The position numbers and the translations under genes are program-made. Below the pieces are notes generated by a model that had not been told where the DNA came from, did not search any database, and saw only the letters and a list, made by a program, of their open reading frames with translations. 64,000 bases of DNA from Deltaproteobacteria bacterium (GTDB lineage: Bacteria; Bacillota; Desulfotomaculia; Desulfotomaculales; JAGUVT01), in assembly GCA_020062745.1 (NCBI GenBank), contig JAGUVT010000014.1, positions 23,521 through 87,520 of the forward strand. The letters are read 5' to 3'. This document shows positions 1,246 to 17,893 of the stretch, one piece after another. How positions within the stretch are numbered: position 1 is the stretch's first letter; each line of letters starts with the position of its first letter.

Positions 1246-1265
1246 AACTTGCTCCACTCCATTAT

Positions 1266-2201
<936 letters not shown>

Positions 2202-2275
2202 CTATAATTATTATACAGTATATAGTATACAGAATAAAGGAAAAAATAACCACTTAAATTATTATAGTTTTTAAA

Positions 2276-2707: not shown

Positions 2708-2748
2708 CTAAACTTCCCTCCAATATAGTGGTTAGTGCTTTTTAATTT

Positions 2749-2952: not shown

Positions 2953-2965
2953 GGGGTTCTCCTTT

Positions 2966-4501: not shown

Positions 4502-4520
4502 ATATGAAACCTCCAGTCTG

Positions 4521-4925
4521 CTAACGCTCGCATAGTTCAATCAGGGTGCCTAAAGTGGACTGTGGATGCAAAAAGGCGATCCGGGCGCCGCCGGCACCGC
4601 GGCGCGGTTTTTCATCAATCAGGCGGACACCTTTGGCTTTCAGTTCGGCTAACCTTGCTTCGAGGTTTTCCACCCGGAAAGCGACGTGCTGGATTCCCTC
4701 GCCGTTTTTTTCGATGTATCTGGCCACCGGCCCGTCAGGGGAGGTGGATTCTAAAAGCTCCACCTCGCTGTCTCCGGTGGGGAGAAAAGCAACTTTTACT
4801 TTTTGTTCTTCGACAATTTCCGTATCGGTTACCTTTAACCCCAGGAGTCCTTCGTAAAGTTCTATGGCTTTATTTAAGTCCTTGACGGCAACTCCGATAT
4901 GGTCGATCTTTTTAATCACTGACAT
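4521..4925 (-). CDS. mce: Methylmalonyl-CoA epimerase (VOC/glyoxalase fold)
   Basis: 134 aa with IDHIGVAV...GIQHVAF...FLHP metal-ligand pattern typical of the epimerase. The true start may be GTG 4919, which has GGGAGGG 6 nt upstream. Confidence 0.88.
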
Positions 4926-4958
4926 CCCTCCCTTATTTATTAAAATATATCCATTTTT

Positions 4959-6656
4959 TTAAAATATAACCTGCTGCTCGTATTCGCCAAAGACTTCTCT
5001 TAACACGCCGCATATTTCTCCCAGCGTGGCATAATTTCTCACCGCTTCAATAAAGATGGGCATTAAATTATCCTTGCCTGCCGCTGCTTTGCGCAACCCG
5101 GACAGAATTGATTCCACCCTGGCATTGTCTCTTCCGGCCCGTAACTTTTTCAATTTTTCCGCCTGGCGCTCGCCGACGGTCAGGTCTACTTTCAACAGGT
5201 CTTTCGGTTTCTCCGGCGGCATTACGAATTTATTGACACCGATGACCACCTTCTGGCCCGACTCAATATCTTGCTGATATTTATAAGCGCTGTTGTGGAT
5301 TTCCCGCTGCATAAAGTCCAGAGCTTTTGTCGAACCGCCCAATTCGTCGATTTTGCTGATATACTGTTGTGCTTTTTCCTCCAACTGGCCGGTCAGGTTT
5401 TCCATAAAGTAAGAACCGCCCAGTGGATCCACAGTATCGGCGACACCAATTTCATAGCCGACCACCTGTTGGGTACGCAGGGCGATTAATACCGATTCTT
5501 CAGTCGGCAGGGCCAGGGCTTCGTCCCGGGAGTTGGTGTGCAGGGATTGGGTTCCTCCCAGAACGGCGCTCAAAGCCTGGAACGCCACCCGCATGATATT
5601 TACATCGGGCTGCTGGGCGGTTAGAGTACAGCCGGCAGTTTGGGTATGGAACCGTAACATGCACGGGCGGGGATTTTTGGCCCCGAACCGTTCTTTCATG
5701 ATTTTCGCCCATAAGCGGCGGGCAGCCCGGAACTTGGCTATTTCTTCAAAGAAGTTGAGGTGGGCGTTGAAGAAGAAAGACAACCTGCCGGCAAAATCAT
5801 CTATGTTCAATCCGGCTTTAACGGCCGCATCTACGTAGGCGATACCGTTTGCCAGGGTGAACGCGACTTCCTGAGCGGCAGTGGATCCGGCTTCTCTGAT
5901 ATGATAACCGCTGATGCTGATCGTATTCCAGGCCGGTATTTCTTTGGCGCAATAAGCAAAGATATCGGTGATCAGGCGCATGGAGGGCTCCGGTGGCAGA
6001 ATATAAGTGCCTCTGGCGATATACTCCTTCAAGATGTCATTTTGGATAGTGCCATTTAGTTTTGACGGCTCTACTCCCTGTTTCTCAGCAACTGCAATAT
6101 ACATGGCCAGTAAAATGGCGGCCGGTGCGTTAATGGTCATGGAGGTGCTTACTTTATCAAGAGGTATTTGGTCAAATAGGGTTTCCATATCCATGATGGA
6201 GTCGATGGCTACCCCTACTTTGCCGACTTCCCCGCTGGCCAGCGGATGATCGGAATCATATCCGATCTGGGTGGGCAAATCGAAAGCTACCGAGAGGCCG
6301 GTTTGACCCTGCTCCAACAGATAACGGAAGCGGCGGTTGGTTTCTTCCGCTGTGCCGAATCCGGCGTACTGGCGCATGGTCCACAACCGCCCGCGGTACA
6401 TGTTCGGCTGTACTCCGCGGGTAAAAGGATACTCGCCGGGCAATCCCAGATCCTGCATATAATCAAAATCAGCGTCCGGCGTATAGAGACACTCAATTGG
6501 CACCCCTGAGTCGGTGCTGAAGTCCGCCTGCCGTTCGGGACGTTTTTTTAAGGTTGTTTCCAGTCTGGTTTGCCAGGCCTCTTTGAGAGCAGCAATTTCT
6601 TTTAGTTTTTCTTGATTAAACAAAACCTTCCTCCTTTCTTTTCTCCCCTTCGTCAA
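4959..6656 (-). CDS. mcmA: Methylmalonyl-CoA mutase, catalytic (N-terminal, substrate-binding) subunit; no fused B12-binding domain
   Basis: The canonical MCM signature is intact: RQYAGF (Tyr89), [14 protein letters not shown] (Gln197/Arg207) and SGYH (Tyr243/His244), in P. shermanii numbering. The protein ends at ~565 aa, before where the cobalamin domain would start. The start is more likely TTG 6623 (AGGAGG 6 nt upstream) than TTG 6656. Confidence 0.92.
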
Positions 6657-7523
6657 TCAAGCCAAAAGTTTTCTAATCATCTCCGGTACTTCGGACGGCA
6701 TTTCGGCTACCAGGGCGCCGGCTTCGGCAAGGGCTTTTACTTTCCCCTCGTAAGTTCCTTTACCTCTTCTGATAATTGCTCCGGCGTGACCCATCCGTTT
6801 TTCCGGGGGGGCGCTCTTGCCGGCAATATAAGCTACCACCGGCTTGGTCATCTCTTTAATATAAACCGAGGCTTCTTCCTCGGCGTTGCCGCCGATTTCG
6901 CCAATCAACACAACAGCTTTTGTTTCCGGATCGGCTTCAAAAAGTTTTAGCACGTCAATAAAAGTAAGACCCACAATGCGGTCTCCGCCCATACCGACAG
7001 CAGTGGATTGACCGAACCCGGCTGCAATCAAGTTTCCTGCGATCTCGTAAGTTAAAGTTCCGCTGCGGGATACCATTCCCACCGGACCGGGCATGAAAAA
7101 CTGGTTGGGCGGTATGCCTATTTTGCATTTACCGGAAGAAACAATACCAAACGTGTTGGGCCCGATGAGGACGGCCTTCTTCCGCTGGGCATAGGCTATA
7201 AACTCCATTTCGTCCTGTACCGGAATATGTTCAGTGATCACTACCACAGTGCCGATTCCCGCCTCCAGGGCTTCCAGGACGGCATCTTTGGCGAAGGCGG
7301 CAGGGATAAAGATTACCGACGCATCGACCTGATGTTCTTGTAAAACCGCCCGTACCGTGTCGTAAACCGGTATGTCTTCAAATTTGCTGCCGCCTTTCCC
7401 CGGCGCCACGCCGGCTACAACCTTCGTGCCATAAGCCAACATTTGCCTGGTGTGAAAAGAACCTTGCTTACCAGTAATACCCTGGACCATAACACGGGTA
7501 TTTTGATCAACAATAATGGCCAC
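6657..7523 (-). CDS. sucD: Succinyl-CoA synthetase alpha subunit
   Basis: 288 aa with [12 protein letters not shown] and the phosphohistidine loop MGHAGAI. GTG start. Confidence 0.93.
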
Positions 7524-7543
7524 TAATAAGACAACCCCTTTAA

Positions 7544-8674
7544 CTAAAGACTTCCTGCCGGTACCAGTGCAGCCAGTTCTACCGCCTTGGCTGCCGCCTC
7601 GTCCATATTCGTGTAAGCTTCAATCCCCTGTTCCCGCAAAATACGCCTTCCTTCCTCCTGGTTGGTACCCACCAGCCTGATTACCACCGGTACAGGGATG
7701 CCGTGCTCTTTTTTTACCTTTGCGAAGGCGCCGGCAACATCATCGCACCGGGTAATACCGCCGAATATGTTAATAAAAATTACTTTCGGATCTTTCGCCA
7801 GCAAAATTTCTAAAGCTTTGGCAGTAGCCTCCATATCGGTTCCGCCGCCTACATCCATAAAATCGGCCGGCGCGCCGCCGTAACGCTGGATTATATCCAG
7901 GGTGCTCATGGTAATGCCAGCGCCGTTTGCCATTACGGCAATGTCCCCCTCCAGTTCAACATATGAAATGCCGAGGTCCTGGGCCAGTTTTTCTGCTTCG
8001 GTTTGTTCTTCTATATATGGAATGTCTTTCTGCCTGAACAGGGCTTCAGAGTCAATGATTACCTTGGCGTCAGCCGCAATAATTTTTTCTCCGCAGAATA
8101 CCAACGGGTTAATCTCAACCAGTATAGCATCTTTCTCCTGAAATATTTTATATGCCGCCAGAATAATATTAAGCAGCTCTTTTCCCTGCCTGCTGCCTAC
8201 ATCCAGACCCAGCCGGCGAACAATGTTGCGGGCAATAAAAGGGTGTATCCCGAGTTCCACATCGAGGTGTACTTTGACAATTTTATTTTCAGGCACTTCT
8301 TCAATATCCATGCCCCCCTGGCTGGAAGCAATGATTACCGGTTTCTTAGCTCCTCCGTCAATCGTGACGGACAGGTAAAACTCCCGGTCGATATGCAACT
8401 TTTCTTCGATCAGCAGCTTTTCTACCGTATGCCCCTCGATTTTCATGCCTAACAATTCCCGGGCAGCTTTTTTAGCCTCTGCCGACGTGTCGGCAAATTT
8501 AATGCCGCCGCCTTTTCCCCGTTTACCTGAAAGAACCTGTGCTTTGATTGCTACCGAACCGATTTCCGTAGCAACCCAGGCTGCTTCATAAGCAGTGGTA
8601 ACCACTCTTCCTTTTGGCACCCGCAGGCCAAAGCGGCTGAAAAGTTCCTTTCCCATGTATTCAAATATTCTCAC
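7544..8674 (-). CDS. sucC: Succinyl-CoA synthetase beta subunit (ATP-grasp)
   Basis: 376 aa with N-terminus [12 protein letters not shown] and an ATP-grasp plus ligase-CoA domain order. GTG start, adjacent to sucD. Confidence 0.93.
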
Positions 8675-8711
8675 TGCCTAATTCTTCCCCTCCGGTTATT
8701 TATTAATACAA

Positions 8712-9830
8712 TTAACGAGGTTCAAGTTCTACCTCCTTATAGGTAGTCAGAGGCAATTTTTCCTCCCGGTCTTTACCCGGGATGTAATCGAACAGGTCCT
8801 GAACCTTTTTACCAACAGCCCTGAATATAATGGAAATGGGCAGTTCGCTGGGACAGGCGCTTTCACACTGGCCGCACCCAATGCAACTCATACCCATGTG
8901 ATTAAGTCTGGTCAGATGGAACAGCACTGTATCGGTGGGCATTTCAATTATGCCCTTGCGGGAAGCCCATTTAATATATTTTTCCGGTTCATGATCGAAA
9001 ACAGGACCTTCAAAAACACATTGCCGGCAAAAACACAACGGGCAGGCCCGGCGGCAGTTCTGACAGCGGAGACAGGTGGCCAGTTCGGCCGTCAATGCCT
9101 CTATGTTATCGAACTTCCGGTCGAACTCATGAAAAACCCTTTCTTTTTCTGCCGCCCGATTTTCCTTCAAACGGGCAATCAGAGTCAGCCTTTCAGCCGG
9201 CATTTCTATTTCCTCCAAAGCTAAATTTTCTTTGAGCATGGAAGCAATTTCATCCGGCATGGAAATGACGAATTGCTCATTCAACCCTACCCACCCGATT
9301 GTCAGATCAACATTTTCCGGCACAATCTGGTCGCAAGTCCGGCAGCAATGCCGGATTGTAACGTTGCCCGTCCCAATGTTTTCCCCTTTTGCGGCCTGGT
9401 TTATCCAAACGTCCTGGGTAAGCAGGTTTTTACCTGCCATCCGGGAGTAATCTGTGGGATTAAAAGTACCCAAACAATCTACCCCGATTAATAATAAGTG
9501 ATCGAGGGAAGCCTGATTTAATTTGACCAGTTCTACCAGCGCCCGTGCTTCACAGGGACGCAGCACGACCCCGATTTTCTCTTCTGGATCGGTGAAAGTG
9601 AGATCGGAAACATGCCTGGCTGCATTAGCCAGGCTGACGGGAGCCAGCGGAGCAACTGCCGCAATCCGGTCGGCTTCTTTCACCAGGGTGGAAACCACGC
9701 TGTTTTTAGAAGTTACTTCCTGGGGAACCAGTAATGAGTCAACTGCTTTTTCAGTTAATAAGGCACGAAAGAAGGATAACAAAGCAGTGCCAGGATTTTG
9801 CCCGGTAAATTTTAACGACATGTTTTTCAT
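8712..9830 (-). CDS. FrhB/FdhB-family-like iron-sulfur (flavo)protein with two C-terminal [4Fe-4S] ferredoxin motifs
   Basis: The track ORF is 8712..9860. I prefer ATG 9830 (MKNMSLKF...), which has GAGGT 7 nt upstream. Motifs CLRCQNCRRACP and CIGCGQCESACP are present. The N-terminal two thirds resemble the F420-hydrogenase/formate-dehydrogenase beta-subunit fold. That family assignment was made by eye only. Confidence 0.65.
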   Translation of the reverse strand: MKNMSLKFTGQNPGTALLSFFRALLTEKAVDSLLVPQEVTSKNSVVSTLVKEADRIAAVAPLAPVSLANAARHVSDLTFTDPEEKIGVVLRPCEARALVELVKLNQASLDHLLLIGVDCLGTFNPTDYSRMAGKNLLTQDVWINQAAKGENIGTGNVTIRHCCRTCDQIVPENVDLTIGWVGLNEQFVISMPDEIASMLKENLALEEIEMPAERLTLIARLKENRAAEKERVFHEFDRKFDNIEALTAELATCLRCQNCRRACPLCFCRQCVFEGPVFDHEPEKYIKWASRKGIIEMPTDTVLFHLTRLNHMGMSCIGCGQCESACPSELPISIIFRAVGKKVQDLFDYIPGKDREEKLPLTTYKEVELEPR

Positions 9831-9847
9831 TAAATATACCTCGCTGC

Positions 9848-10339
9848 TTAAATTTCCCACTGCATTTTAAGTGGATTGGGCCCCAATTTTTTCAAGGCAT
9901 CTACCATCTGCTGCACTGTTTCCCCGAACAGCTTTCCTTCTGAAGCACTGATAAATCTAAACCAGACCCGCTCCTCCGGAATGCCGAATTGTTTTAAAAT
10001 GGTTTTGACCACGGCAATTTTACGCCTGGCCTTGAGATTACCACTAACATAGTGGCACTCGCCAGCGTGTCACCCTCCTACCAATACCCCATCGACTCCT
10101 TCCAAAATTGGCTTTAAAATATAGAGAGGGTCTACCGAACCGGTACACATAACCCGGATAATCCTGATATTGGGGGGATACTGAATGCGGGAAGTGCCTG
10201 CCAGATCGGCTCCGGTATAGGTACACCAGTTACAGAAAAGGGCTATGATTTTCGGTTCAAACTCTTGCTCTGTTTGTGATTCGAAAACTGCTTCTGCCGG
10301 TTGCAAAGGCACAATACCTCCTTTAGCCAAGAGCAGCAT
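9848..10339 (-). CDS. mvhD: MvhD/FlxD-like electron-transfer protein, predicted selenoprotein (UGA-Sec at 10070-10072); 163 aa when read through
   Basis: The track stops the ORF at TGA 10070-10072 (89 aa). The same frame continues for 73 more codons to TAA 9848-9850: ...GVLVGG-U-HAGECHYVSGNLKARRKIAVVKTILKQFGIPEERVWFRFISASEGKLF.... This matches the MvhD core (FCNWCTYTGADLAG...RVMCTG...GGCHxGDCHY...SASEG). The start may be GTG 10312 (AAGGAGG upstream). Confidence 0.75.
10023..10067 (-). promoter_or_regulatory. SECIS-like stem-loop directly downstream of the in-frame UGA
   Basis: Thirteen nt after the UGA is the hairpin UGCCACUA-UGU-UAGUGGUA (10039-10057, GU in the apical loop). It is stacked on a lower helix CGCUGGC / GCCAG(G)CG (10061-10067 pairing with 10023-10030). 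Confidence 0.55.
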
Positions 10340-13181
10340 CTGCCATGGCTATAATTTGTTGTTTGGCAAAACCTTTTTGCTGTGATGCCCCGCTGGGACA
10401 GGATGCCACACAGGCGCCGCAGCCCTGGCAAAGCACCTCGTGCACACGGGCGATCATCCCGTTTTCCCTGTCCAGATAGCGGGCGTCATAAGCACAAACC
10501 GCAACGCAGAGACCGCATCCCTTGCAGCAATCCTCGTCCACTGTAGCCACAATGCCGAGGCTTTCCAGACGGTCTTTGGATAAAAGGGTTACCGCCCGCA
10601 CTGCGGCTGCATTAGCCTGGGCTATCGACTCGCCGAGCAGTTTCGGCGAATGGCCCAGACCGCACAGGTAAATGCCGTCGGCAGCAAAGTCTACCGGGCG
10701 GAGTTTCATGTGCGCTTCAGCAAAAAACCTGTCTGCCGTCAGCGCCACCTTGAATAACCAGCTTAACTTTTCGTTATCACTACGTGGTGCCACACCAGTG
10801 CTCAAAACCAGCAAATCGGCGTCTAAGGATACTTGTTCCCCCAAAACCGGGTCATTTACCTGCAGAGTAAGATGCGAGCCGGAAGCAGTAACTGACGGTT
10901 TATTTTCAAGGTCGTAACGGATGAAAATCACCCCTTTCGACCTGGCCTTTTTATAGTATTTTTCCATGAAGCCGTACATCCGGACATCGCGGTAAAGAAT
11001 GAAAACGTTGGCCGCCGGATTTATTTCTTTGATTTTAAGGGCGTTTTTTATGGCATGGGAACAACAAATCCGGCTGCAGTAAGGACGCCCTTCCTGTCTT
11101 GAACCGACGCACTGGATCATGACTATGTTTTTAACCCCCGGCAGTTCGTTTCCCACTATTTTATGTTCCAGTTCGGTTTGGGTCAATACAGACGGGTGTT
11201 CTCCGTACATGTACTCCTCCGGCCTCGCTTCCCGGGCGCCGATAGCCATGATTACGACTCCATGGGTCAGCTCTCTGATTTCTCTGCCCAGCTTTACTTT
11301 TGTGCGGTAATTGCCAACATAACCCGATACTTCCTTGATTTCGGCTCCTGTGAGCACCGTTATCCGGGGATTTTCCTGTAATTGGTTAACCAGTCGACCT
11401 AATAAAACCTGCGGATTGTTACCCTGGATCGTGTAAAAAAGGTTCCGGGCATTTCCTCCCAGTTCCTTTTCTTTTTCTACCAAGTAGACGTCAAATCCCT
11501 GACCGGCCAGAGACAAAGCTGCAGTTATCCCCGCCATTCCCCCGCCGGCCACCAGGGCCCGCCTGTTGACCTCAATAAAAGAGGTGGCAACCGGTTCCAA
11601 CAAGCAGGCCTTGGCTACTGACATGGAAACCAGTTCTTTGGCTTTCTCGGTAGCTGCCGCCGGCTGGTCGCGGTGAACCCATGCGGAATGTTCACGGATG
11701 TTGGCCTGTTCAAACAAATGGGGATTAAGGCCAGCCTCCCGCATGCTGCTCATAAACAGGGGAGCATGAGTGCGGGGAGTACAAGAGGCTACCACCAGAC
11801 GGTTTAAACCATATTCGATAATCCGCTCTTTTATCTTCTGAATGTTATCCTGCGAGCAGGTGAATAGAAATTCTTCAGCGTATTTGACGTTTCGCAGGCC
11901 GCCGGCATATTTGACTACTTCCGGCACGTTGATTATGCCGCCGATATTTATGCCGCAATTACACACGAATACTCCTACCGACGGCTCTTCGTCGCTGACA
12001 TCTCTTTCCGGCGGATATTCTTTAGCAGCGGTTAAAGAACCGCGGGCAGTACTCAAAAGACAGGAGGCATGAGCTGCCGCAGCACTGGATTCCACTACCG
12101 TTTCCGGAATGTCTTTTGGTCCGCAAAAAGCGCCGCTGACAAATACGCCCTCTTTTGATGTGCAGCCCGGTTTAAATTCATCAGGCTGGCAGAAGCCGTA
12201 TTCATTTAGTTTGATTCCCGTTCTTCCAGCTAGTTCCCCCGCGGAAGCAGACGGACGCAGGCCAACTGACAGAACAACCAGGTCAAAATCTTCCTCGGCA
12301 AATTTTCCGTTAGCTTTACGGTACTTGATCCGGAGGGTCTTTTCTTGTTGTAATTCCCTCACCGTCGAGACGATACATTTTTCATAGCGCACCCCATGTT
12401 CCAGCCTGGCCCTGTCGTAGTACTTCTCAAAATCCTTGCCGAAAGCCCGCACATCTATGTAAAATATGGCAGTCTCCAGGCCGGGTACGTGTTCCTGGGC
12501 GATAATGGCCTGCTTGGTCGCATACATACAGCAAACCGCCGAGCAGTATTCACTTCCCTTATCGGTACTGTCGCGGGAACCGATACACTGGATGAAGGCG
12601 ATCTTTTTGGGTTCTGTTTTATCCGAGGGACGTACCAGGTGTCCCTGGAAAGGACCGGAAGCGCTCAACATGCGCTCGAACTGGATGCTGGTCAGCACAT
12701 TGGGGTAAATTCCCCACCCGAACTCTTGCCTTAGTCTGGCGTCAAAGGGTTCGAACCCGGGGCTTAAGATGACTGCGCCGGCTGCCAGTTCTATCTCTTC
12801 ATCGCTCATCGAATGGTCAATTGCTGCAGGCAGGCAGACCTTTGTGCATTCCAGGCATTCTGAACATACACCGCAGTTCAGGCACCGTTCGGCTTCTTTT
12901 TTGGCCTGCTGCAGGGTATAGCCGGCGCTGACCTCGCTGAAATTTTTAGCTCTCTCCACCGGTTCGGCGCAAGAAACAGGCTCGGGCTCAAACCGCGGGA
13001 TCTCATCCCCGGCGAAGCGAAGCGGGGCTACCTTTTCCTCTGATACCTTAAAGGTGTTCTTTAACTCCAGTCCCTGTAAATACTGGTGAATGGACTCAGC
13101 CGCCAGTTTGCCGGCTGCCACCGCTTCAATTACCGTCTTCGGTCCGGTCACGGCGTCGCCGCCGGCAAAAACGCCGGGCAA
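10323..13181 (-). CDS. HdrL-like giant flavo-Fe-S protein, C-terminal ORF (end of GltD-like module, remainder of first HdrA unit, second HdrA unit, C-terminal 2x[4Fe-4S] ferredoxin)
   Basis: 952-aa ORF that begins inside the GltD FAD motif (L)PGVFAGGDAVTGPKTVIEAVAAGKLAA. HdrA motifs QCIGSRD...CSAVCCMYA and QCVGSRQ...CSRICCSHA are present, as is a second dinucleotide fold VAGGGMAGITAAL. The terminal motifs are CKGCGLCVAVC and CQGCGACVASCP. The frame is open upstream of the annotated TTG. Confidence 0.85.
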   Translation of the reverse strand: MPGVFAGGDAVTGPKTVIEAVAAGKLAAESIHQYLQGLELKNTFKVSEEKVAPLRFAGDEIPRFEPEPVSCAEPVERAKNFSEVSAGYTLQQAKKEAERCLNCGVCSECLECTKVCLPAAIDHSMSDEEIELAAGAVILSPGFEPFDARLRQEFGWGIYPNVLTSIQFERMLSASGPFQGHLVRPSDKTEPKKIAFIQCIGSRDSTDKGSEYCSAVCCMYATKQAIIAQEHVPGLETAIFYIDVRAFGKDFEKYYDRARLEHGVRYEKCIVSTVRELQQEKTLRIKYRKANGKFAEEDFDLVVLSVGLRPSASAGELAGRTGIKLNEYGFCQPDEFKPGCTSKEGVFVSGAFCGPKDIPETVVESSAAAAHASCLLSTARGSLTAAKEYPPERDVSDEEPSVGVFVCNCGINIGGIINVPEVVKYAGGLRNVKYAEEFLFTCSQDNIQKIKERIIEYGLNRLVVASCTPRTHAPLFMSSMREAGLNPHLFEQANIREHSAWVHRDQPAAATEKAKELVSMSVAKACLLEPVATSFIEVNRRALVAGGGMAGITAALSLAGQGFDVYLVEKEKELGGNARNLFYTIQGNNPQVLLGRLVNQLQENPRITVLTGAEIKEVSGYVGNYRTKVKLGREIRELTHGVVIMAIGAREARPEEYMYGEHPSVLTQTELEHKIVGNELPGVKNIVMIQCVGSRQEGRPYCSRICCSHAIKNALKIKEINPAANVFILYRDVRMYGFMEKYYKKARSKGVIFIRYDLENKPSVTASGSHLTLQVNDPVLGEQVSLDADLLVLSTGVAPRSDNEKLSWLFKVALTADRFFAEAHMKLRPVDFAADGIYLCGLGHSPKLLGESIAQANAAAVRAVTLLSKDRLESLGIVATVDEDCCKGCGLCVAVCAYDARYLDRENGMIARVHEVLCQGCGACVASCPSGASQQKGFAKQQIIAMADAALG

Positions 13182-13234
13182 ATCAGTAGCTAAAGTTTCC
13201 TGAACAGCTGTAATATTGCCGCTCCGGCTTATAT

Positions 13235-14743
13235 TTACCGGGAGATCAAGAGGCAGGTCTGGTTTTGACCCACGGCCAGGAGCACTGTATCCGCTTCCAG
13301 GAAAAACTCGCTTCCTTTTACCGGTATGGGAGCGAGCCGGCCGCTGGCGTCGGGCTCACTCAGTTCATTCCGGAGGCATTCCATGCGCGTCAGCCTGCCG
13401 TTTTCGCCGTGGAAAGCCTTGGGAGCCGTCAACATCAGGAATGCGATGCCTTCTTCTTTGGCTTCTCTAATTTCTTCCGGAAGGGCCGTGATTTCCGCCT
13501 CGGTTCGCCGGTATACGATGGTAACGTTTTCTGCGCCCAGGCGCAATGCCGTACGGGCACAATCCATGGCTGTGTTTCCACCGCCGATTACAGCTACCTG
13601 CCGGCCGACTTCTACTTTTTCACCCAGGGCTACGCTACGCAAGAAATCTAGGCCGTGCATCACTCCGTTAAGTTCTTCTCCTGGCACACCCAACCGGGTG
13701 CCCTTGTGGGCGCCGATAGCCAGAAAAACCGCCTGGTAAGCTTCATCCTGTAGACTTTGCAGGGTGAAGTCCTTACCCAGCCCGGTGTTATAACGAATCT
13801 CAAGCCCCATTTTAATCAGCAGTTCGACTTCCAACTGCACCCACTTTTTGGGCAACCGGTACTCGGGGATACCCACGCGCATCATCCCGCCAGCCACCGG
13901 TAAGGCTTCAAATACTGTTACCGTATAGCCTTTCTTAAGCAACTGGTAAGCTGCTGACAAACCAGCCGGGCCGGCGCCGACAACAGCCACCTTTTTGTTT
14001 TTCGCTTCTTCGCTTGCCGGCAGAGGCAGTTCACCCAAGTTATTATAGGCAAAGTCTGCCGCCACCCGTTTAAGATGCATAATATTAACCGGCTTATCAA
14101 TACTGCTCCGGTGGCACCCGGTCTGGCAGGGGTGCGTACAGATCCGTCCACAGGCTGCCGGGAAAGGATTGTCCCGGTAAACCATCTGCCACGCTTCCAT
14201 AAGTTTACCTGTTTTGATCAACTGGATGTATCCCTGTGCGTTTACACCTGCCGGGCAGGCTGCCCGGCAGGGCGGTATGCCTGTTTTTTCAATGGCGAAG
14301 GCGTTGGGGGTAGCCTGCGGGTAGAACTTGTAAATAGCCTTTCGCTGTGCCAGTCCGGCGTCAAAGTCGCTGGTAACTTCCACCGGACAGGCCCGGGCGC
14401 AGTCGCCGCATCCGGTACATTTTTCCAAGTCCACATACCGGGCCTTTTTCTTCAATTTAACCCGGAAGTTGCCCGGCTCACCGCTTAAGCTCCGGACTTC
14501 GGCGCCAGTCAGGACCTGGATATTGAGGTGCCGCCCGGTATCAACCAGCCGTGGGGACATGGTGCACATGGCGCAATCGTTGGTCGGAAAGGTTTTGTCC
14601 AGCCGGGCCATGGTGCCGCCGATAGCCGTCTGGTTTTCTACCAGGTAGACTTTAAAACCGGCTTCGGCCAGGTCCAGGGCCGACTGCATGCCGCTAATAC
14701 CGCCTCCGACAACCATTACGGCGCCGATTTTTTCATTATTCAT
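13235..14743 (-). CDS. HdrL-like giant flavo-Fe-S protein, N-terminal ORF (HdrA N-terminus plus inserted GltD/NfnB-like NAD(P)H module), ends prematurely
   Basis: 502 aa with VVGGGISGMQSALDLA...LDKTFPTNDCAMC (HdrA N-terminus), then VAVVGAGPAGLSAAY...VIGGGNTAMDCART (glutamate-synthase-small-subunit-like module). SD AAGGAAGG precedes the start. It stops 9 codons after the conserved ADTVLLAVGQ. The rest of the domain continues in the -1 frame. Confidence 0.85.
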   Translation of the reverse strand: MNNEKIGAVMVVGGGISGMQSALDLAEAGFKVYLVENQTAIGGTMARLDKTFPTNDCAMCTMSPRLVDTGRHLNIQVLTGAEVRSLSGEPGNFRVKLKKKARYVDLEKCTGCGDCARACPVEVTSDFDAGLAQRKAIYKFYPQATPNAFAIEKTGIPPCRAACPAGVNAQGYIQLIKTGKLMEAWQMVYRDNPFPAACGRICTHPCQTGCHRSSIDKPVNIMHLKRVAADFAYNNLGELPLPASEEAKNKKVAVVGAGPAGLSAAYQLLKKGYTVTVFEALPVAGGMMRVGIPEYRLPKKWVQLEVELLIKMGLEIRYNTGLGKDFTLQSLQDEAYQAVFLAIGAHKGTRLGVPGEELNGVMHGLDFLRSVALGEKVEVGRQVAVIGGGNTAMDCARTALRLGAENVTIVYRRTEAEITALPEEIREAKEEGIAFLMLTAPKAFHGENGRLTRMECLRNELSEPDASGRLAPIPVKGSEFFLEADTVLLAVGQNQTCLLISR

Positions 14744-14847
14744 AAGCGAAACCTTCCTTAGGTGAATTTAGATGAACTTTGCAAAACTACTCAACAACCG
14801 ACTACCTTTGATTAGGAAAAATTTCCTCTTTTCTATTTTATTAAAAA

Positions 14848-14870
14848 CTGACTGCTGACTGCTGACTGCT
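14848..14870. repeat. 7-bp tandem repeat (CTGACTG x3.3) in the 140-bp hdrB-hdrL intergenic gap
   Basis: Direct reading gives ctgactg ctgactg ctgactg ct at 14848-14870. Confidence 0.85.
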
Positions 14871-14883
14871 TAATAGCCGGACA

Positions 14884-15741
14884 TTAGCCCGCTAAAGACA
14901 GTGAACGCAACAGCGGAAACGGATCCACCAGATGTTTCGGCCACCAGTTCCGTTCTTCCGGCATGCCGAAAGCCAGACCGATTAGTTCGGTAAAGAAAAA
15001 TGCTGGGATGCCGCTAAATGGTTTCTTTCTTCTCATTTCCAGGTTGGACTGGCAGAGCGGACAGGCAGTAACAATGGCCATGGCTCCGGCTTCGGCGGCC
15101 ATATCTAAAAGAAGCCCGACCATTTCCTGGACGGCGTCGCTTTTAACCAGGCTTAAACTGGCTCCGCAACAATCGGTCTTATACGACCACATTAAAGGTT
15201 CTGCTCCCAGGCTGGAAACTATTTTATCCAAAATAACCGGATTTTCTGTTTGGTCAAAGCCGGTTATTTCCGGCGGACGAACCAGCAGGCAACCGTAATA
15301 ACAAACCACCTTCAAACCGGTAAGCGGCTTTTTTACCAGACTTGCCATGGTGTCCGCGCCGACCTGGTAATAAATAGTTTCCAGCAATGACTGAACGTTA
15401 ACTGTGCCGTTAAATTTAAAGCCCACCACTTCTTCCACTTTTTTACGTTCCACTTCATTTTCTTGCAGGACATAAGCAGCAGTTTTTAAACGGTTGTAGC
15501 AGGCCGAGCAGGGGGCAACCAGACATTGCGCCGCTTCTTCCTGGGCCAGGGCCAGGTTACGGGCCGGTAAGGCCAGGGCCAGCAAATGATTGATGCTATG
15601 GGCGGAAGTAGCGCCGCAGCAATTCCAGTCCTGCAGTTCTGCCATTTCCAGACCCAGGTGACGGCATACCGTCCTGGCCGAAAGGTCATATTCTTTAGCC
15701 GTGGCTTCCAGCGAACACCCTGGATAATAAGCTATTTTCAA
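14884..15741 (-). CDS. hdrB: Heterodisulfide reductase subunit B-like protein (two CCG domains)
   Basis: 285 aa with two CCG repeats: YYPGCS...NCCGATS...APCSACY and YYGCLL...DCCGASL...TACPLCQ. TTG start with AAAGGTGG upstream. Confidence 0.9.
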   Translation of the reverse strand: MKIAYYPGCSLEATAKEYDLSARTVCRHLGLEMAELQDWNCCGATSAHSINHLLALALPARNLALAQEEAAQCLVAPCSACYNRLKTAAYVLQENEVERKKVEEVVGFKFNGTVNVQSLLETIYYQVGADTMASLVKKPLTGLKVVCYYGCLLVRPPEITGFDQTENPVILDKIVSSLGAEPLMWSYKTDCCGASLSLVKSDAVQEMVGLLLDMAAEAGAMAIVTACPLCQSNLEMRRKKPFSGIPAFFFTELIGLAFGMPEERNWWPKHLVDPFPLLRSLSLAG

Positions 15742-15765
15742 TTAATTATACCACCTTTTAGAGCT

Positions 15766-16326
15766 TTATTGTTTGGCGGCTTCTTTGAAAATTTGCCGGA
15801 CTTCTTTTAGCCGTTTAATTCTCTTGGGCAAAAAAGCAAACTTCCCTTTTTTAAACATCTTCAGTCCGATATCCAGGTCGGCAAACAGTGTCCTGCTTCT
15901 CAGCTTGTACTGCGCCATCATTGACAGTTCATGCACTCGCCCGTCGCGGCGCACTGAATTTAAAAAAGCGTTATGAAACAGGGGGATATTTTTCTCTCCG
16001 GATAGTGCCCGCTCTTTAACGGCCATCTCGCGCAGGGCATCCGTTACAGCAGCAATTTTGATGCCGTTCGGGCAGCGGGCGCCGCACGTTTCGCAGCCGG
16101 AACAAAGCCAGATAAAAGAACTGTTAAGGATGCGCTCTTTGAGGCCGTACTGAATCATTCGTACTACCTGGTTGGGGTGATAATCGGCATGCTCTGCTAC
16201 CGGACAGCCGGAAGAACACTTTTGGCACTGGTAACACAACTCAATGGCTTGACCGGACCGTTTTTTAATTTCCTGTATAAAGGATAGATCCAGCATAACG
16301 GGTCCTTTCGAAGTCATGATCTGCAC
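15766..16326 (-). CDS. hdrC: Heterodisulfide reductase subunit C-like protein (2x[4Fe-4S])
   Basis: Motifs CYQCQKCSSGCP and CSGCETCGARCP are present. The true start may be ATG 16296 (AAAGGA 6 nt upstream). Confidence 0.88.
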   Translation of the reverse strand: MQIMTSKGPVMLDLSFIQEIKKRSGQAIELCYQCQKCSSGCPVAEHADYHPNQVVRMIQYGLKERILNSSFIWLCSGCETCGARCPNGIKIAAVTDALREMAVKERALSGEKNIPLFHNAFLNSVRRDGRVHELSMMAQYKLRSRTLFADLDIGLKMFKKGKFAFLPKRIKRLKEVRQIFKEAAKQ

Positions 16327-16343
16327 TATTAATCACTCTCTTT

Positions 16344-16979
16344 TTAATAATCATTTTCATGAGGGATATCATTATTGGGGAAATTGCCACCGAAAGCATC
16401 ATTGGCCACCCTCAAGGGCATGTTCTCAATTACCATTTCGTAAATGGCTTCTGTTCCCAGTTCAGGGTAGGCGATCACCCGGGCATCTTTTATACACTTG
16501 GAAATCAGCGCGGCTGCTCCGGAAAAAGTAACAAAATAAACAGCTTTATATTTTTTCATGGCTTCAATTACTTTTTGTGACCGGTACCCCTTGCCGATGG
16601 TCCCCTTTAAACCTAAAGCAAGAAGCCTGGGAGTGTAAACATCCATTCGTTCACTGGTGGTCGGTCCGGCCGAACCGATTACATGGCCGGGCCTGGCCGG
16701 AGTCGGTCCGGCATAAAAAATAACCTGGCCTTTGAGATCAATTGGCAACTCTTTACCTTGATCCAAAAGTTCGCTTAGCTTTTTATGAGCAGCATCACGG
16801 GCTGTATAAAGTCTGCCGCTCAAGGCAACCCGGTGGCCAGCTCTTAAGATTTCTACGACTTCATCAGTTAAAGGGGTTGAAAGTTTAATCTGATCCACCT
16901 TAGAACCATCTCCTCCATCTCCCTTTTTATCTCTTTCTTTTAATGTTTGGGGCAAGCTTTTTATTTGTATACTCTTCAT
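16344..16979 (-). CDS. fumB: Class I fumarate hydratase, beta (C-terminal domain) subunit
   Basis: Core sequence IKLSTPLTDEVVEILRAGHRVALSGRLYTARDAAHKKL...GPTTSERMD. ATG 16979 overlaps the alpha-subunit stop (ATGA). An alternative start is GTG 16898 (VDQIKLSTPL), preceded by GGAGATGGAGGAG. Confidence 0.88.
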   Translation of the reverse strand: MKSIQIKSLPQTLKERDKKGDGGDGSKVDQIKLSTPLTDEVVEILRAGHRVALSGRLYTARDAAHKKLSELLDQGKELPIDLKGQVIFYAGPTPARPGHVIGSAGPTTSERMDVYTPRLLALGLKGTIGKGYRSQKVIEAMKKYKAVYFVTFSGAAALISKCIKDARVIAYPELGTEAIYEMVIENMPLRVANDAFGGNFPNNDIPHENDY

Positions 16980-17821
16980 AAAATAGCACTCTTGTAGCGG
17001 CTGGCATGGCAGTTTATATTTACCGCTACCGGCAGGCTGGCTATATGGGTGGCGAAGACCTCCACATGAACGGCCAGAGCGGTAGTCTTACCGCCGATTC
17101 CCAGGGGACCTATATCCAAAGCATTAATTTCCTCCAGCAACTCCTCTTCCAGACAAGCTATATCGGCCATCCTGCTTTTCTTTCCCACGGGCCTGAGCAA
17201 GGCTTCTTTTGCAATCAGCGCGGCTTTTTCAAAATTTCCACCGATACCTACCCCCAGCACTACCGGCGGGCAAGCATTAGGACCAGCTTCTTTTACCACG
17301 TTAATGACGAACTTCTTAACTCCTTCCACACCTTCCGACGGTTTCAACATTTTAATGGCGCTGGTATTTTCACTACCGCACCCCTTGGCCAGAACAGTTA
17401 GCTTTAAATTTTCACCCGGTACTATATTGGTATGAATTATTGCTGGAGTATTATCTCCGGTATTCTTCCGTTCCAACGGATGTCTTACTATTGACTTGCG
17501 CAGGTAGCCTTCGCGGTACCCTTTCCTTACCCCCTCGTTAATCGCCTTATAAAAATCTCCACCAGTGACATGAACGTCCTGTCCAAGTTCTATAAAAACA
17601 ACAGCAAAACCCGTATCCTGGCAGATTGGGATACCTTCCGTACGGGCGATTTCGGCATTTTTAATCAGATTTTGGATAATCCTTTTCCCTGGAATGGACA
17701 CTTCTTGTTCATATGCTTTTTGAAAACTATCCAGGACATCTTTTCCAAGATTAAAGTTGGCTTCTTGGCATAGTCGCGCTACAGCTTCAATGATTAAATT
17801 GGTGTCGATAGATTTTATGAT
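16976..17821 (-). CDS. fumA: Class I fumarate hydratase, alpha (N-terminal domain) subunit; probable non-canonical start codon
   Basis: The track ORF starts at GTG 17701. The frame stays open for 40 more codons, IIKSIDTNLIIEAVARLCQEANFNLGKDVLDSFQKAYEQE, which looks like the conserved fumarase N-terminus. A strong SD AAGAGGAGGGGG sits just upstream of ATC 17821 / ATA 17818. The PICQDTG motif follows. Confidence 0.8.
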   Translation of the reverse strand: MIKSIDTNLIIEAVARLCQEANFNLGKDVLDSFQKAYEQEVSIPGKRIIQNLIKNAEIARTEGIPICQDTGFAVVFIELGQDVHVTGGDFYKAINEGVRKGYREGYLRKSIVRHPLERKNTGDNTPAIIHTNIVPGENLKLTVLAKGCGSENTSAIKMLKPSEGVEGVKKFVINVVKEAGPNACPPVVLGVGIGGNFEKAALIAKEALLRPVGKKSRMADIACLEEELLEEINALDIGPLGIGGKTTALAVHVEVFATHIASLPVAVNINCHASRYKSAIL

Positions 17822-17865
17822 GCCCCCTCCTCTTTACGAAGCGCCGACATCCCTTATTTAATAAT

Positions 17866-17893
17866 AATATAAAATTTTAATCTTGTTAAGCAA
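17866..17893 (-). promoter_or_regulatory. Candidate sigma-A-type promoter of the fumarase/methylmalonyl-CoA supra-operon
   Basis: On the minus strand: TTGCTT (17893-17888), a 16-nt spacer, then TATATT (17871-17866), about 40 nt upstream of the fumA SD. The -35 lies inside a tandem ATTTGCTTAA repeat. Confidence 0.4.

What the first reader, a model, noticed from the sequence alone, without database searches (positions are those of the whole stretch)
8712..16326. Hdr/MvhD/FrhB-like redox module sits where succinate dehydrogenase is expected in the methylmalonyl-CoA operon
Seventeen co-directional, tightly packed genes (17821 down to 1) cover fumarase, MDH, transcarboxylase 12S/1.3S/5S, epimerase, MCM and succinyl-CoA synthetase. 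That is every step between propionyl-CoA and oxaloacetate/pyruvate except succinate to fumarate. The gap between sucCD and fumarase is filled by HdrC, HdrB, the HdrL-like HdrA-GltD-HdrA fusion, a Sec-MvhD and an FrhB/FdhB-like Fe-S protein. The window contains no SdhA/FrdA-type flavoprotein or membrane anchor. Succinate oxidation (about +30 mV) is the energetic bottleneck of syntrophic propionate oxidation. HdrB-type CCG domains are also the thiol/quinone-facing modules of thiol:fumarate reductase (TfrB) and type-E succinate:quinone reductases. HdrA plus MvhD is the classic flavin-based electron-bifurcating core. An FdhB-like partner recalls the methanogen Fdh-Hdr supercomplex. My hypothesis is a dedicated confurcating/bifurcating electron hub for the pathway, linking NAD(P)H, ferredoxin and an unknown third couple such as formate, H2 or a thiol/disulfide. 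Its substrate is not deducible from sequence.
Basis: inference. Interest (0 to 1): 0.7.

Follow-up and report, generated by a model that had tools for sequence, protein, structure and literature searches.

The report
Hdr redox cassette inside propionate operon
A five-gene soluble heterodisulfide-reductase-type electron-transfer cassette sits in a propionate-pathway operon exactly where related bacteria carry the same cassette plus a membrane-free fumarate reductase, which makes a cytoplasmic route for the succinate/fumarate step directly testable.

Summary
On the minus strand, hdrC, hdrB, hdrL (HdrA with a GltD-like insert), a selenocysteine mvhD and an FdhB-like Fe-S flavoprotein lie between fumarase and sucCD. 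They belong to a 16-gene methylmalonyl-CoA (mmc) operon. No SdhA/FrdA homologue occurs in the 64 kb window or in 79 kb of its 94 kb source contig.

The apparent hdrL split is a 1-nt difference between two records of the same contig. The gene is intact in the JGI record and in a sister population.

The cassette is a known but uncharacterised kind, the HdrABC/HdrL type (Syntrophobacter fumaroxidans Sfum_0819-0824; Desulfobacterium autotrophicum hdrL-mvhD-fdhB loci).

What is new is its context:
- The nearest relatives carry mvhD and fdhB-like at the same operon slot, followed directly by an anchorless TfrA-like frdB/frdA pair.
- Across phyla, 47 of 112 informative loci link the cassette to that pair, often with sucCD, fumarase or malic enzyme.

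So the unknown "third couple" is most probably fumarate/succinate. However, this genome lacks frdBA in cis. The partner flavoprotein always lacks the covalent-FAD histidine, which favours fumarate reduction. About 20 Desulfotomaculia genomes carry the same five genes alone, away from mmc genes.

The parts
17861..17889 (-). sigma-70-like promoter (TTAACA-17-TATTAT) upstream of fumA
   Evidence: Best-scoring minus-strand promoter match in 1-19800. The total number of matches is no higher than in shuffled sequence, so this is only suggestive.
16976..17821 (-). fumA (class I fumarase alpha). The conserved N-terminus requires a non-canonical ATC/ATA start at 17821/17818.
   Evidence: Pfam Fumerase, E=1.7e-107. 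In-frame extension with no ATG/GTG/TTG start. 73% identical to L170 FumA.
16344..16979 (-). fumB (fumarase beta)
   Evidence: Pfam Fumerase_C, E=5.5e-58.
15766..16326 (-). hdrC-like 2x[4Fe-4S] subunit (type 1)
   Evidence: Fer4_8/Fer4_17. Two CX2CX2CX3C motifs. 50-59% identical to Desulfotomaculia cassette HdrC but only 44% to L170 HdrC2.
14884..15741 (-). hdrB-like CCG subunit, the putative disulfide or high-potential site
   Evidence: Pfam CCG x2, E=6.4e-25. Both CX31-39CCX35-36CXXC motifs are intact at residues 9-81 and 147-230. NCBIfam scores are equal for HdrB and for the SdhE of methylmenaquinol:fumarate reductase, both below the curated cut-off.
10323..14743 (-). hdrL: HdrA with a GltD-like NAD(P)H/FAD insert plus a second HdrA-like half. 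One base is missing in this record in the A-run at 13263-13266.
   Evidence: Pfam and NCBIfam domains. The repaired ORF of 1473 aa is collinear with D. nigrificans HdrL at 59.7% identity. The gene is intact in the JGI record of the same contig and in the sister contig L175.
9848..10339 (-). mvhD with selenocysteine (UGA at 10070-10072). The probable start is the GTG at 10312, which follows an AGGAGG.
   Evidence: FlpD, E=8e-25. At the same position homologues carry 88 Cys codons and 34 TGA. The RNA after the UGA folds stably, z=-2.98. 85.5% identical to L170 MvhD.
8712..9830 (-). FdhB-like Fe-S flavoprotein, the adaptor or input subunit that docks to MvhD
   Evidence: The family profile matches FdhB chains of Fdh-Hdr and Elp-Hdr complexes (9t1s_M 4.6e-42, 8rvu_E, 7bkb_E) over nearly the full length. 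The AlphaFold2 model has TM 0.66-0.68 to 8rvu_E and 7bkb_E. mvhD lies immediately upstream in 144 of 144 loci. dN/dS against L087 is 0.16.
6657..8674 (-). sucC (7544-8674) and sucD (6657-7523), succinyl-CoA synthetase
   Evidence: Pfam ATP-grasp_2, Ligase_CoA and CoA_binding.
1..6656 (-). Rest of the mmc operon: mcm large subunit 4959-6656, epimerase 4521-4925, 12S 2966-4540, epsilon 2749-2952, 1.3S 2276-2707, mdh 1266-2189, 5S 1-1263 (runs off the window)
   Evidence: Pfam. 58-83% identical to the L170 orthologues, in the same order.

Best explanation
The five genes encode a soluble HdrCB-HdrL-(Sec)MvhD-FdhB-like complex of the 'HdrABC/HdrL' kind. It is transcribed as part of the methylmalonyl-CoA operon.

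Proposed mechanism (all of it inferred by homology):
- NAD(P)H enters or leaves at the GltD-like FAD domain of HdrL.
- The HdrA-type FAD of HdrL splits or merges electron pairs between a low-potential branch and a high-potential branch.
- The low-potential branch runs through the C-terminal 2x[4Fe-4S] domain to ferredoxin.
- The high-potential branch runs (a) through HdrC to the CCG clusters of HdrB, and/or (b) through the MvhD [2Fe-2S] cluster to the FdhB-like flavoprotein.
- The FdhB-like subunit docks a catalytic partner. In the lineage this operon belongs to, that partner is an anchorless TfrA-like fumarate reductase (FrdB'A'), so the high-potential couple is fumarate/succinate.

This genome lacks frdB'A' at that slot. 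The cassette most likely works with a fumarate reductase or succinate dehydrogenase encoded elsewhere, coupling the fumarate/succinate step of the pathway to NAD(P)H and ferredoxin in the cytoplasm. The more probable direction is fumarate reduction (NAD(P)H + fumarate + oxidised ferredoxin).

Shown: gene identities, cofactor motifs, operon position, synteny statistics, and purifying selection. Inferred: complex formation, bifurcation, the partner, and the direction.
For: Identity:
- Pfam, NCBIfam and motif results.
- The FdhB-like protein is a full-length homologue of the FdhB chains seen in solved Fdh-Hdr and Elp-Hdr complexes.
- mvhD lies directly upstream of fdhB-like in 144 of 144 loci.

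Link to fumarate/succinate:
- L001, L088, L089 and L170 read fumAB-hdrCBA-mvhD-fdhB-like-frdB'-frdA'-sucCD(-mcm...). Their mmc genes are 66-83% identical to the window's, and MvhD is 85.5% identical.
- In the neighbour-joining tree, (window, L087) is sister to that FRD+ clade.
- 47 of 112 informative loci have frdB'A' within 6 kb downstream, and 31 have it directly adjacent. These loci come from Chloroflexota, Bacillota, Gemmatimonadota, Deltaproteobacteria and Halanaerobiaceae.
- The window-type set (hdrC1B1-hdrL) co-clusters with frdB'A' and sucCD in L022 and L030, where a malic enzyme gene lies upstream, and in L080 together with fumAB.
- FrdA' is a genuine SdhA/FrdA-family flavoprotein (7d6v_A, E=7e-68). 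Its closest NCBIfam model is TfrA.

The cassette is functional in this lineage:
- dN/dS is 0.11-0.16 for MvhD and FdhB-like, against 0.08-0.11 for SucCD.
- hdrL is intact in the JGI record and in L175.

Literature: P. thermopropionicum has a cytoplasmic FrdAB next to an FrhB-domain protein, soluble NADH:fumarate reductase activity, and an unidentified NADH-oxidising subunit (PMC10308238).
Against: - No FrdA/SdhA gene is present in the window or in 79 kb of its 94 kb contig.
- The same five-gene unit, without frdBA or mmc genes nearby, is the rule in Desulfotomaculia (L002-L020, L023, L024, L027). It therefore need not have a fumarate-reductase partner.
- The window's hdrCB and hdrL are of the Desulfotomaculia stand-alone type, not the type found in the FRD+ sister operons (37-44% identity).
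- In S. fumaroxidans the homologous complex is most abundant with sulfate, and DsrC was proposed as its acceptor (PMC5947623).
- No biochemical data exist for any member of this family.
Confidence: 0.42

Rival explanations
1. Stand-alone redox-balancing complex. The five proteins are self-sufficient. The FdhB-like flavoprotein itself oxidises or reduces a diffusible hydride carrier, as the FdhB homologue does in the Methanothermobacter Elp-Hdr complex. HdrL handles NAD(P)H, and HdrBC reduces a protein or small-molecule disulfide while ferredoxin is co-reduced or co-oxidised. The cassette is co-expressed with the mmc genes only to recycle the NADH (from malate dehydrogenase) and ferredoxin that the pathway produces. 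It has no direct role at the succinate step.
For: - About 20 Desulfotomaculia loci carry exactly hdrC-hdrB-(hdrL and/or a 1008-aa HdrA-like gene)-mvhD-fdhB-like, followed by unrelated genes.
- The window's hdrCB and hdrL are closest to this type (50-67% identity).
- The best structural match of the FdhB-like model is 8rvu_E, an FdhB-type chain in an Hdr complex described without formate dehydrogenase.
- The HdrB CCG motifs are intact.
- S. fumaroxidans Sfum_0819-0824 has the same composition and is detected in its proteome (PMC5947623).
Against: - It does not explain why the cassette sits precisely between fumarase and sucCD.
- It does not explain why the orthologous mvhD/fdhB-like pair in the sister clade is fused to frdB'A' at that very slot.
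- No dsrC or other candidate disulfide carrier is found in the window or inside the clusters.
- F420 is not expected in these Firmicutes (background knowledge).
Confidence: 0.33
2. One reading: an electron-confurcating succinate oxidation. Succinate plus reduced ferredoxin reduce NAD(P)+, removing the need for membrane-driven reverse electron transport during syntrophic propionate oxidation.
For: - Operon position and linkage to frdBA in relatives.
- My own estimate of the thermodynamics suggests it becomes feasible only at a very low fumarate/succinate ratio.
- The pathway produces one reduced ferredoxin per succinate.
Against: - All 51 cassette-linked FrdA' proteins carry Asn where the covalent-FAD His sits. 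Enzymes with non-covalent FAD are known as fumarate reductases and oxidise succinate poorly (background knowledge from E. coli FrdA His44 variants).
- P. thermopropionicum SDH2 is a soluble NADH:fumarate reductase, and H2 formation from propionate there is uncoupler-sensitive (PMC10308238).
- SDH2 transcripts are about ten-fold lower than SDH1 and do not respond in coculture (PMC6046458).
- A fully soluble pathway that keeps one ATP per propionate would exceed the free energy available in syntrophy (inference).
- The window has no frdBA.
Confidence: 0.12
3. A formate- or H2-linked Hdr complex of the Fdh-Hdr or Mvh-Hdr type, with the catalytic FdhA or hydrogenase subunit encoded elsewhere.
For: - The FdhB-like protein is homologous to FdhB.
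- hdrBCA-mvhD-fdhBA clusters exist in Chloroflexi, Desulfobacula and D. autotrophicum (PMC5736913, PMC2702500).
Against: - No molybdopterin FdhA and no hydrogenase large subunit is found in the window or in the contig parts inspected.
- None of the 171 loci analysed was seen with fdhA directly after this fdhB-like subfamily. The downstream partners found were frdB'A' or hdrCB. fdhA was not searched for explicitly.
Confidence: 0.07
4. A decaying, non-functional remnant of an FRD-containing cassette, suggested by the frameshifted hdrL and the lost frdBA and mmcF.
For: - The window sequence has a 1-nt deletion in hdrL.
- frdBA, mmcF and the sigma-54 activator are absent compared with L170.
Against: - The JGI record of the same contig encodes an intact 1473-aa HdrL, and so does the sister population.
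- dN/dS is 0.11-0.16.
- The Sec codon and all cluster motifs are retained.
- The same architecture appears in three assemblies.
Confidence: 0.03

Closest known systems
Syntrophobacter fumaroxidans 'HdrABC/HdrL' complex (Sfum_0819-0824; PMC5947623)
   Same: It has the same parts list: hdrCB(A), a GltD-containing HdrL, MvhD and an FdhB-like Fe-S protein, with no hydrogenase or FdhA. The host is a propionate oxidiser. The function is unknown.
   Different: It is not inside an mmc cluster, because Syntrophobacter mmc genes are scattered. It carries an additional hdrA. It is most abundant with sulfate, and DsrC was proposed as its acceptor.
Desulfobacterium autotrophicum hdrL-mvhD-fdhB loci (PMC2702500)
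   Same: This is where HdrL was defined, as an HdrA/glutamate-synthase fusion. Each hdrL there is followed by mvhD. Some loci have fdhB without fdhA. Both MvhD and HdrL can be selenoproteins.
   Different: The genomic contexts differ (dsr or fdhA genes). There is no link to C4-dicarboxylate genes.
Methanogen Fdh-MvhD-HdrABC(-Fmd) supercomplex (PDB 7BKB) and Elp-Hdr complex (PDB 8RVU)
   Same: FdhB-type subunit, MvhD and HdrA/B/C. These are the best sequence and fold matches of the FdhB-like protein. They provide the wiring model FdhB to MvhD to HdrA-FAD to ferredoxin plus HdrBC.
   Different: They are archaeal, use F420 or formate, and reduce CoM-S-S-CoB. They have no GltD insert and no FrdAB partner. 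Identity to the window protein is only 21-23%.
Thiol:fumarate reductase TfrAB of methanogens
   Same: The cassette-linked FrdA' scores best against the TfrA model. It is anchorless, has non-covalent-type FAD, and is combined with CCG (HdrB-like) domains. Desulfovirgula thermocuniculi has hdrC-hdrB-frdB'-frdA' (L171), which resembles a split Tfr.
   Different: The TfrA score is below the curated cut-off (344 versus 718 bits). The bacterial thiol is unknown. The window itself has no TfrA/FrdA gene.
Pelotomaculum thermopropionicum cytoplasmic SDH2/FRD (PTH_1490-1492; PMC10308238)
   Same: An anchorless FrdAB encoded next to an FrhB/FdhB-domain protein in a Pelotomaculaceae propionate oxidiser. 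Soluble NADH:fumarate reductase activity was measured, and the NADH-oxidising subunit is unidentified.
   Different: It lies outside the mmc cluster. Gene order and sizes differ (212, 560 and 404 aa). Orthology to the family studied here could not be tested because the sequences were not retrievable. No Hdr or MvhD is reported beside it.
Canonical mmc operon of Peptococcaceae propionate oxidisers (PMC8892533, PMC6046458)
   Same: The order is the same: fumarase, sucCD, mcm, epimerase, 12S, epsilon, 1.3S, mdh, 5S.
   Different: In the canonical operon fumarase is followed directly by sucCD, and sdh lies elsewhere. The canonical operon also has a sigma-54 regulator (mmcA), mmcF and POR (mmcM). 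All three are absent here.

Membership tests
HdrABC/MvhD-type flavin-based electron-bifurcating core | HdrB with two complete CCG motifs (non-cubane [4Fe-4S] sites) | tested here: met
   Motifs at residues 9-81 and 147-230. Pfam CCG x2.
HdrABC/MvhD-type flavin-based electron-bifurcating core | HdrC with two [4Fe-4S] motifs, and an HdrA-type FAD/Fe-S subunit with a C-terminal ferredoxin domain | tested here: met
   The HdrA2 model scores 743 bits, which is below the equivalog cut-off of 1100, so this is a family-level match only.
HdrABC/MvhD-type flavin-based electron-bifurcating core | MvhD [2Fe-2S] subunit adjacent to hdrA | tested here: met
   FlpD domain. Sec/Cys site.
HdrABC/MvhD-type flavin-based electron-bifurcating core | Demonstrated coupled reduction of ferredoxin and a high-potential acceptor | not testable with these tools
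   This needs biochemistry.
HdrL (HdrA/GltD fusion) | A GltD-like NAD(P)H/FAD domain inserted in an HdrA, in one polypeptide followed by mvhD | tested here: met
   The insert spans residues ~153-617 relative to the 1008-aa HdrA-like paralogues. A single 1473-aa product is called in the JGI record. The window copy has a 1-nt gap.
Fdh-Hdr supercomplex | FdhB-type subunit | tested here: met
   Profile E-values of 1e-38 to 1e-42 against FdhB chains. TM 0.66-0.68.
Fdh-Hdr supercomplex | Catalytic molybdopterin/tungstopterin FdhA encoded with it | tested here: not met
   No Molybdopterin domain in any large ORF of the window or in the flanking gene calls.
Succinate dehydrogenase / fumarate reductase (including TfrAB and type E) | SdhA/FrdA/TfrA flavoprotein | tested here: not met
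   tblastn best E=0.3. No Pfam hit to an SdhA/FrdA-type flavoprotein. Present in the sister operons.
Succinate dehydrogenase / fumarate reductase (including TfrAB and type E) | SdhB/FrdB Fe-S subunit with an N-terminal 2Fe-2S domain | tested here: not met
   FrdB' gives only weak ferredoxin-motif hits inside fdhB-like, hdrL and hdrC.
Succinate dehydrogenase / fumarate reductase (including TfrAB and type E) | CCG-domain subunit (SdhE or the TfrB C-terminus) | tested here: inconclusive
   HdrB scores 164 bits against both the SdhE (MFR anchor) and HdrB models, and both are below cut-off.
mmc (methylmalonyl-CoA) operon | Co-directional fumarase, SCS, MCM, epimerase, transcarboxylase 12S/1.3S/5S and MDH | tested here: met
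   The MCM small subunit, the sigma-54 regulator and POR are absent.
mmc (methylmalonyl-CoA) operon | Co-transcription and induction on propionate | not testable with these tools
   Only tight spacing and one promoter-like site are available.

The most novel reading that the evidence does not exclude
The Hdr-MvhD-FdhB-like cassette together with the anchorless TfrA-like FrdAB forms a new class of flavin-based electron-bifurcating enzyme. It would be an NAD(P)H-dependent, ferredoxin-reducing fumarate reductase. Run in reverse, it would be a ferredoxin-assisted succinate dehydrogenase. Either way, the fumarate/succinate step becomes cytoplasmic and independent of quinone and membrane potential. 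In this Peptococcaceae bacterium the mmc operon would recruit that machinery for propionate metabolism, with the catalytic pair supplied in trans.
Probability: 0.2. Interest if true: 0.85.

Novelty: new variant of a known kind. Interest (0 to 1): 0.6.

Why it matters
Succinate oxidation is held to be the energetic bottleneck of syntrophic propionate oxidation. It is thought to need a membrane-bound, menaquinone-linked Sdh driven by reverse electron transport (PMC10308238, PMC8892533).

Here the SDH slot of an mmc operon is filled by an Hdr/MvhD/FdhB-like cassette. Sister operons add a soluble fumarate reductase at the same place. Together these point to a cytoplasmic, ferredoxin- and NAD(P)H-linked way of handling the fumarate/succinate couple.

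The same cassette-FrdAB linkage recurs in Chloroflexota, Bacillota, Gemmatimonadota, Deltaproteobacteria and Halanaerobiaceae. A widespread, uncharacterised and possibly bifurcating fumarate reductase system may therefore have been overlooked. It would also supply the missing NADH-oxidising partner of the soluble FRD activity measured in P. thermopropionicum.

If the cassette is instead only a generic redox balancer, the finding is of modest interest.

Tried and rejected
Dead ends in the searches:
- The exact look-up of the HdrB ORF found nothing, probably because of a difference in start-codon call.
- The single-protein scan of metagenome contigs found no relatives. The alignment-based scan found none closer than 53%.
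- The genome-contig scan showed that the species is not among the GTDB representatives (best 53%).
- I searched the supplements of PMC11201294 for hdrA/mvhD locus tags in Ca. Syntrophopropionicum. The relevant sheet is not held.
- The Pelotomaculum schinkii energy-conservation paper (10.1111/1462-2920.14388) is not held.
- Phrase searches for a 'bifurcating fumarate reductase', 'Hdr-Frd' and similar terms returned no papers.

Ideas considered and rejected:
- hdrL as a pseudogene or a programmed frameshift. The site is not a slippery heptamer. The gene is intact in the other record of the same contig and in the sister contig.
- The cassette as a relic (dN/dS).
- A rule that one HdrCB paralogue type marks FRD linkage. 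Both types occur next to frdB'A'.
- An extra conserved small gene, such as a DsrC- or GcvH-like thiol carrier, inside FRD+ clusters. None was found.

Full report
**1. What is in the sequence.**
The minus strand of window 1-17821 carries one tightly packed, co-directional gene series. In order, the genes are:
- fumA (16976-17821). Its conserved N-terminus requires an ATC/ATA start.
- fumB (16344-16979)
- hdrC (15766-16326)
- hdrB (14884-15741)
- hdrL (10323-14743)
- mvhD (9848-10339)
- an FdhB-like gene (8712-9830)
- sucC and sucD
- the mcm large subunit
- epimerase
- transcarboxylase 12S
- a 67-aa epsilon ORF (2749-2952)
- 1.3S
- mdh
- 5S, which runs off the window

Intergenic gaps range from -20 to 258 nt. 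The best sigma-70-like promoter match on this strand lies just upstream of fumA. No terminator signal above background occurs inside the series.

HdrB keeps both CCG motifs. HdrC has two CX2CX2CX3C motifs. The FdhB-like protein has 16 cysteines, including two ferredoxin-type motifs.

mvhD has an in-frame TGA at 10070-10072. At that position 88 homologues carry a Cys codon and 34 carry TGA. The RNA after the UGA folds better than every shuffle (z = -2.98). The codon is therefore selenocysteine.

**2. The hdrL 'split' is a record artefact.**
In the window, hdrL reads as two ORFs. One base is missing in the A-run at 13263-13266. Adding one A yields a 1473-aa protein collinear with D. nigrificans HdrL at 59.7% identity.

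Exact-sequence look-ups place the window on a 94,233-bp JGI contig (3300037880, Ga0394678_47359). The same contig exists as a 94,232-bp NCBI record from a 'Peptococcaceae bacterium' MAG. The JGI copy is identical to the window over the 12,189 nt compared, and it calls hdrL as one 1473-aa product. A sister population at 92% nucleotide identity (L175) has an intact hdrL reading CAAAAGCC at the site.

HdrL equals the 1008-aa HdrA-like protein of related cassettes plus a GltD-like insert of about 465 aa.

**3. No succinate dehydrogenase in reach.**
Pfam scans of all large ORFs found no SdhA/FrdA flavoprotein, cytochrome b anchor, FdhA or hydrogenase. tblastn with a TfrA-like FrdA against the whole window gave nothing better than E = 0.3. 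Gene calls for contig positions 14786-94233 show none either. The leftmost 14.8 kb of the contig could not be read.

**4. What kind of module this is.**
The FdhB-like protein belongs to a family with 202 clusters (at 50% identity) matching at E <= 1e-30. No NCBIfam model covers it. Its family profile matches, over almost the full length, the FdhB chains of solved Fdh-Hdr and Elp-Hdr complexes: 9t1s_M at 4.6e-42, 8rvu_E at 1.2e-39 and 7bkb_E at 1.5e-38. An AlphaFold2 model (pLDDT 73, pTM 0.76) superposes best on 8rvu_E and 7bkb_E with TM 0.66-0.68.

Across 171 loci fetched from genomes and metagenomes, mvhD lies immediately upstream of the fdhB-like gene in 144 of the 144 loci with enough upstream sequence.

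The parts list (hdrCB, hdrL, mvhD, FdhB-like Fe-S protein) equals the 'HdrABC/HdrL' complex of S. fumaroxidans (Sfum_0819-0824). That complex is detected in the proteome and has no known function (PMC5947623). It also equals the hdrL-mvhD-fdhB loci of D. autotrophicum (PMC2702500). The module itself is therefore a known, uncharacterised kind.

**5. Context in relatives.**
- The window's architecture (mvhD, fdhB-like, sucC, sucD with no frd genes) recurs in contigs from two other samples: L087, L173, L174 and L175.
- The next relatives (L001, L088, L089 and the 51.8-kb contig L170) carry lexA, a sigma-54 activator, fumA, fumB, hdrC2, hdrB2, hdrA2, mvhD(Sec), fdhB-like, frdB', frdA', sucC, sucD, mcm, the B12-binding subunit, epimerase, 12S, epsilon, 1.3S and mdh.
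- Between the window and L170 the pathway genes are 59-83% identical, MvhD is 85.5% identical and FdhB-like is 63% identical. HdrC and HdrB are only 44% and 37% identical, so they belong to a different paralogue set.
- A neighbour-joining tree of 159 FdhB-like sequences puts (window, L087) as sister to this FRD+ mmc clade. The next sister group is made of stand-alone Desulfotomaculia cassettes.
- Of the 112 loci with at least 2.5 kb of downstream sequence, 47 have frdB'A' within 6 kb. In 31 it is directly adjacent, and in 15 it follows an hdrCB pair. These loci come from Chloroflexota, Bacillota, Gemmatimonadota, Deltaproteobacteria and Halanaerobiaceae.
- Ten of those loci also have sucCD, and ten have fumarase genes. 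L022 and L030 are preceded by a malic-enzyme gene.
- The window-type hdrC1B1-hdrL set occurs in cis with frdB'A' and sucCD in L022, L030, L045 and L080.
- About 20 Desulfotomaculia loci, including D. nigrificans, carry the five-gene unit with unrelated neighbours.

**6. The partner flavoprotein.**
FrdA' is a genuine SdhA/FrdA/NadB-family protein (7d6v_A, E = 7e-68). Its best NCBIfam model is TfrA of thiol:fumarate reductase, at 344 bits against a cut-off of 718. It is 64-78% identical across phyla.

All 51 cassette-linked copies carry Asn where SdhA/FrdA carry the histidine that binds FAD covalently. The substrate-site motifs are kept in at least 45 of the 51. From established work on E. coli FrdA His44 variants (my own knowledge), this favours fumarate reduction over succinate oxidation.

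Desulfovirgula thermocuniculi has hdrC-hdrB-frdB'-frdA' alone, which resembles a split Tfr.

**7. Is the cassette alive in this lineage?**
dN/dS between the window and L087 is 0.156 for FdhB-like and 0.108 for the MvhD C-terminal part. The corresponding values for SucC and SucD are 0.082 and 0.106. The genes are under purifying selection even though frdB'A' is absent in cis.

**8. Interpretation.**
The third couple can now be named as most probably fumarate/succinate, through an anchorless TfrA-like FrdAB.

For this genome the catalytic pair is not in cis, so the link is by orthology and position only.

The claim of a dedicated hub is weakened by the many stand-alone cassettes.

The confurcating succinate-oxidation version is weakened by three points:
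- the non-covalent-type FAD site of FrdA';
- the finding that the analogous cytoplasmic SDH2 of P. thermopropionicum acts as an NADH:fumarate reductase, while propionate-driven H2 formation there needs a membrane potential (PMC10308238);
- the low, unresponsive expression of SDH2 (PMC6046458).

The canonical mmc operon described for all Peptococcaceae propionate oxidisers has fumarase followed directly by sucCD, with sdh elsewhere (PMC8892533). I found no paper describing an Hdr cassette, with or without FrdAB, at this slot. That is absence in the searchable library only.

**9. Verdict.**
The feature is real and reproducible. It is a known type of module in a new and informative context, and the mechanistic hypothesis is open to direct test. 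Novelty: new variant of a known kind. Interest: 0.6.

Noticed in passing
window 13263-13266 (hdrL): The window has one base fewer than the JGI record of the same contig (94,232 versus 94,233 bp). This splits hdrL into two ORFs. The gene is intact in the JGI gene call and in the sister contig L175.
   Followed up: yes
window 4926-4958; 39539-39943 (-); 57443-57874 (+): The mmc operon lacks the MCM B12-binding small subunit (mmcF) that L170 has between mcm and the epimerase. Two B12-binding genes lie elsewhere in the window, each next to another MCM-like large subunit (39964-41595 and 55769-57436). Those large subunits are 43-45% identical to the operon's MCM.
   Followed up: partly
window 31952-41595 (-): A second catabolic cluster: enoyl-CoA hydratase, 3-hydroxyacyl-CoA dehydrogenase, thiolase, a 698-aa protein with two CCG domains plus an Fe-S dicluster (like the EtfD or Fe-S oxidoreductase of syntrophic beta-oxidisers), acyl-CoA dehydrogenase, a family III CoA-transferase, a B12-binding protein and an MCM-like mutase. 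It looks like a butyrate/isobutyrate-type pathway with its own CCG-type electron outlet.
   Followed up: no
window 17816-17836: fumA has no ATG, GTG or TTG at its conserved N-terminus. The reading frame opens after a TAA at 17834-17836, and AGAGGAGGGGG precedes ATC (17821) and ATA (17818). This suggests a non-canonical start codon.
   Followed up: partly
window 17702-18743: Unlike L170 and the canonical mmc cluster, there is no sigma-54 activator (mmcA) between the divergent lexA (18135-18743, +) and fumA. A LysR-type regulator follows at 18726-19634 (-). Regulation of this operon may therefore differ from that in P. thermopropionicum.
   Followed up: no
L172 10945-17420 (contig beyond window position 1): The operon ends with the 5S subunit (464 aa) and a Zn-dependent phospholipase C-like gene. 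There is no pyruvate:ferredoxin oxidoreductase (mmcM). A PFL-like glycyl-radical enzyme (828 aa) lies on the opposite strand.
   Followed up: no
L040, L051, L058, L060, L063-L065 (Dehalococcoidia); L033, L034, L036 (Anaerolineae/Caldilineae): These loci carry conserved superclusters of 10-12 genes: hdrC2B2, a GltD-containing HdrL-like gene, two or three hdrA paralogues, mvhD, fdhB-like, hdrC1B1, frdB' and frdA' (some also with fumB). This is a large, widespread, uncharacterised Hdr-fumarate reductase system.
   Followed up: partly
L171 8020-11599 (Desulfovirgula thermocuniculi): hdrC-hdrB-frdB'-frdA' occurs without hdrA, mvhD or fdhB. It looks like a four-subunit bacterial counterpart of archaeal thiol:fumarate reductase.
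   Followed up: partly
L001/L170 FrdA' residues 1-88: The cassette-linked FrdA' proteins have an N-terminal extension of about 88 residues that is absent from the SdhA/FrdA structures they align to. It could be a docking element.
   Followed up: no
one search hit list (HdrL homologues): Many database HdrL homologues are annotated as partial proteins of about 900-960 aa. This may reflect gene calls truncated at in-frame Sec codons. The window's HdrL has no in-frame TGA.
   Followed up: no
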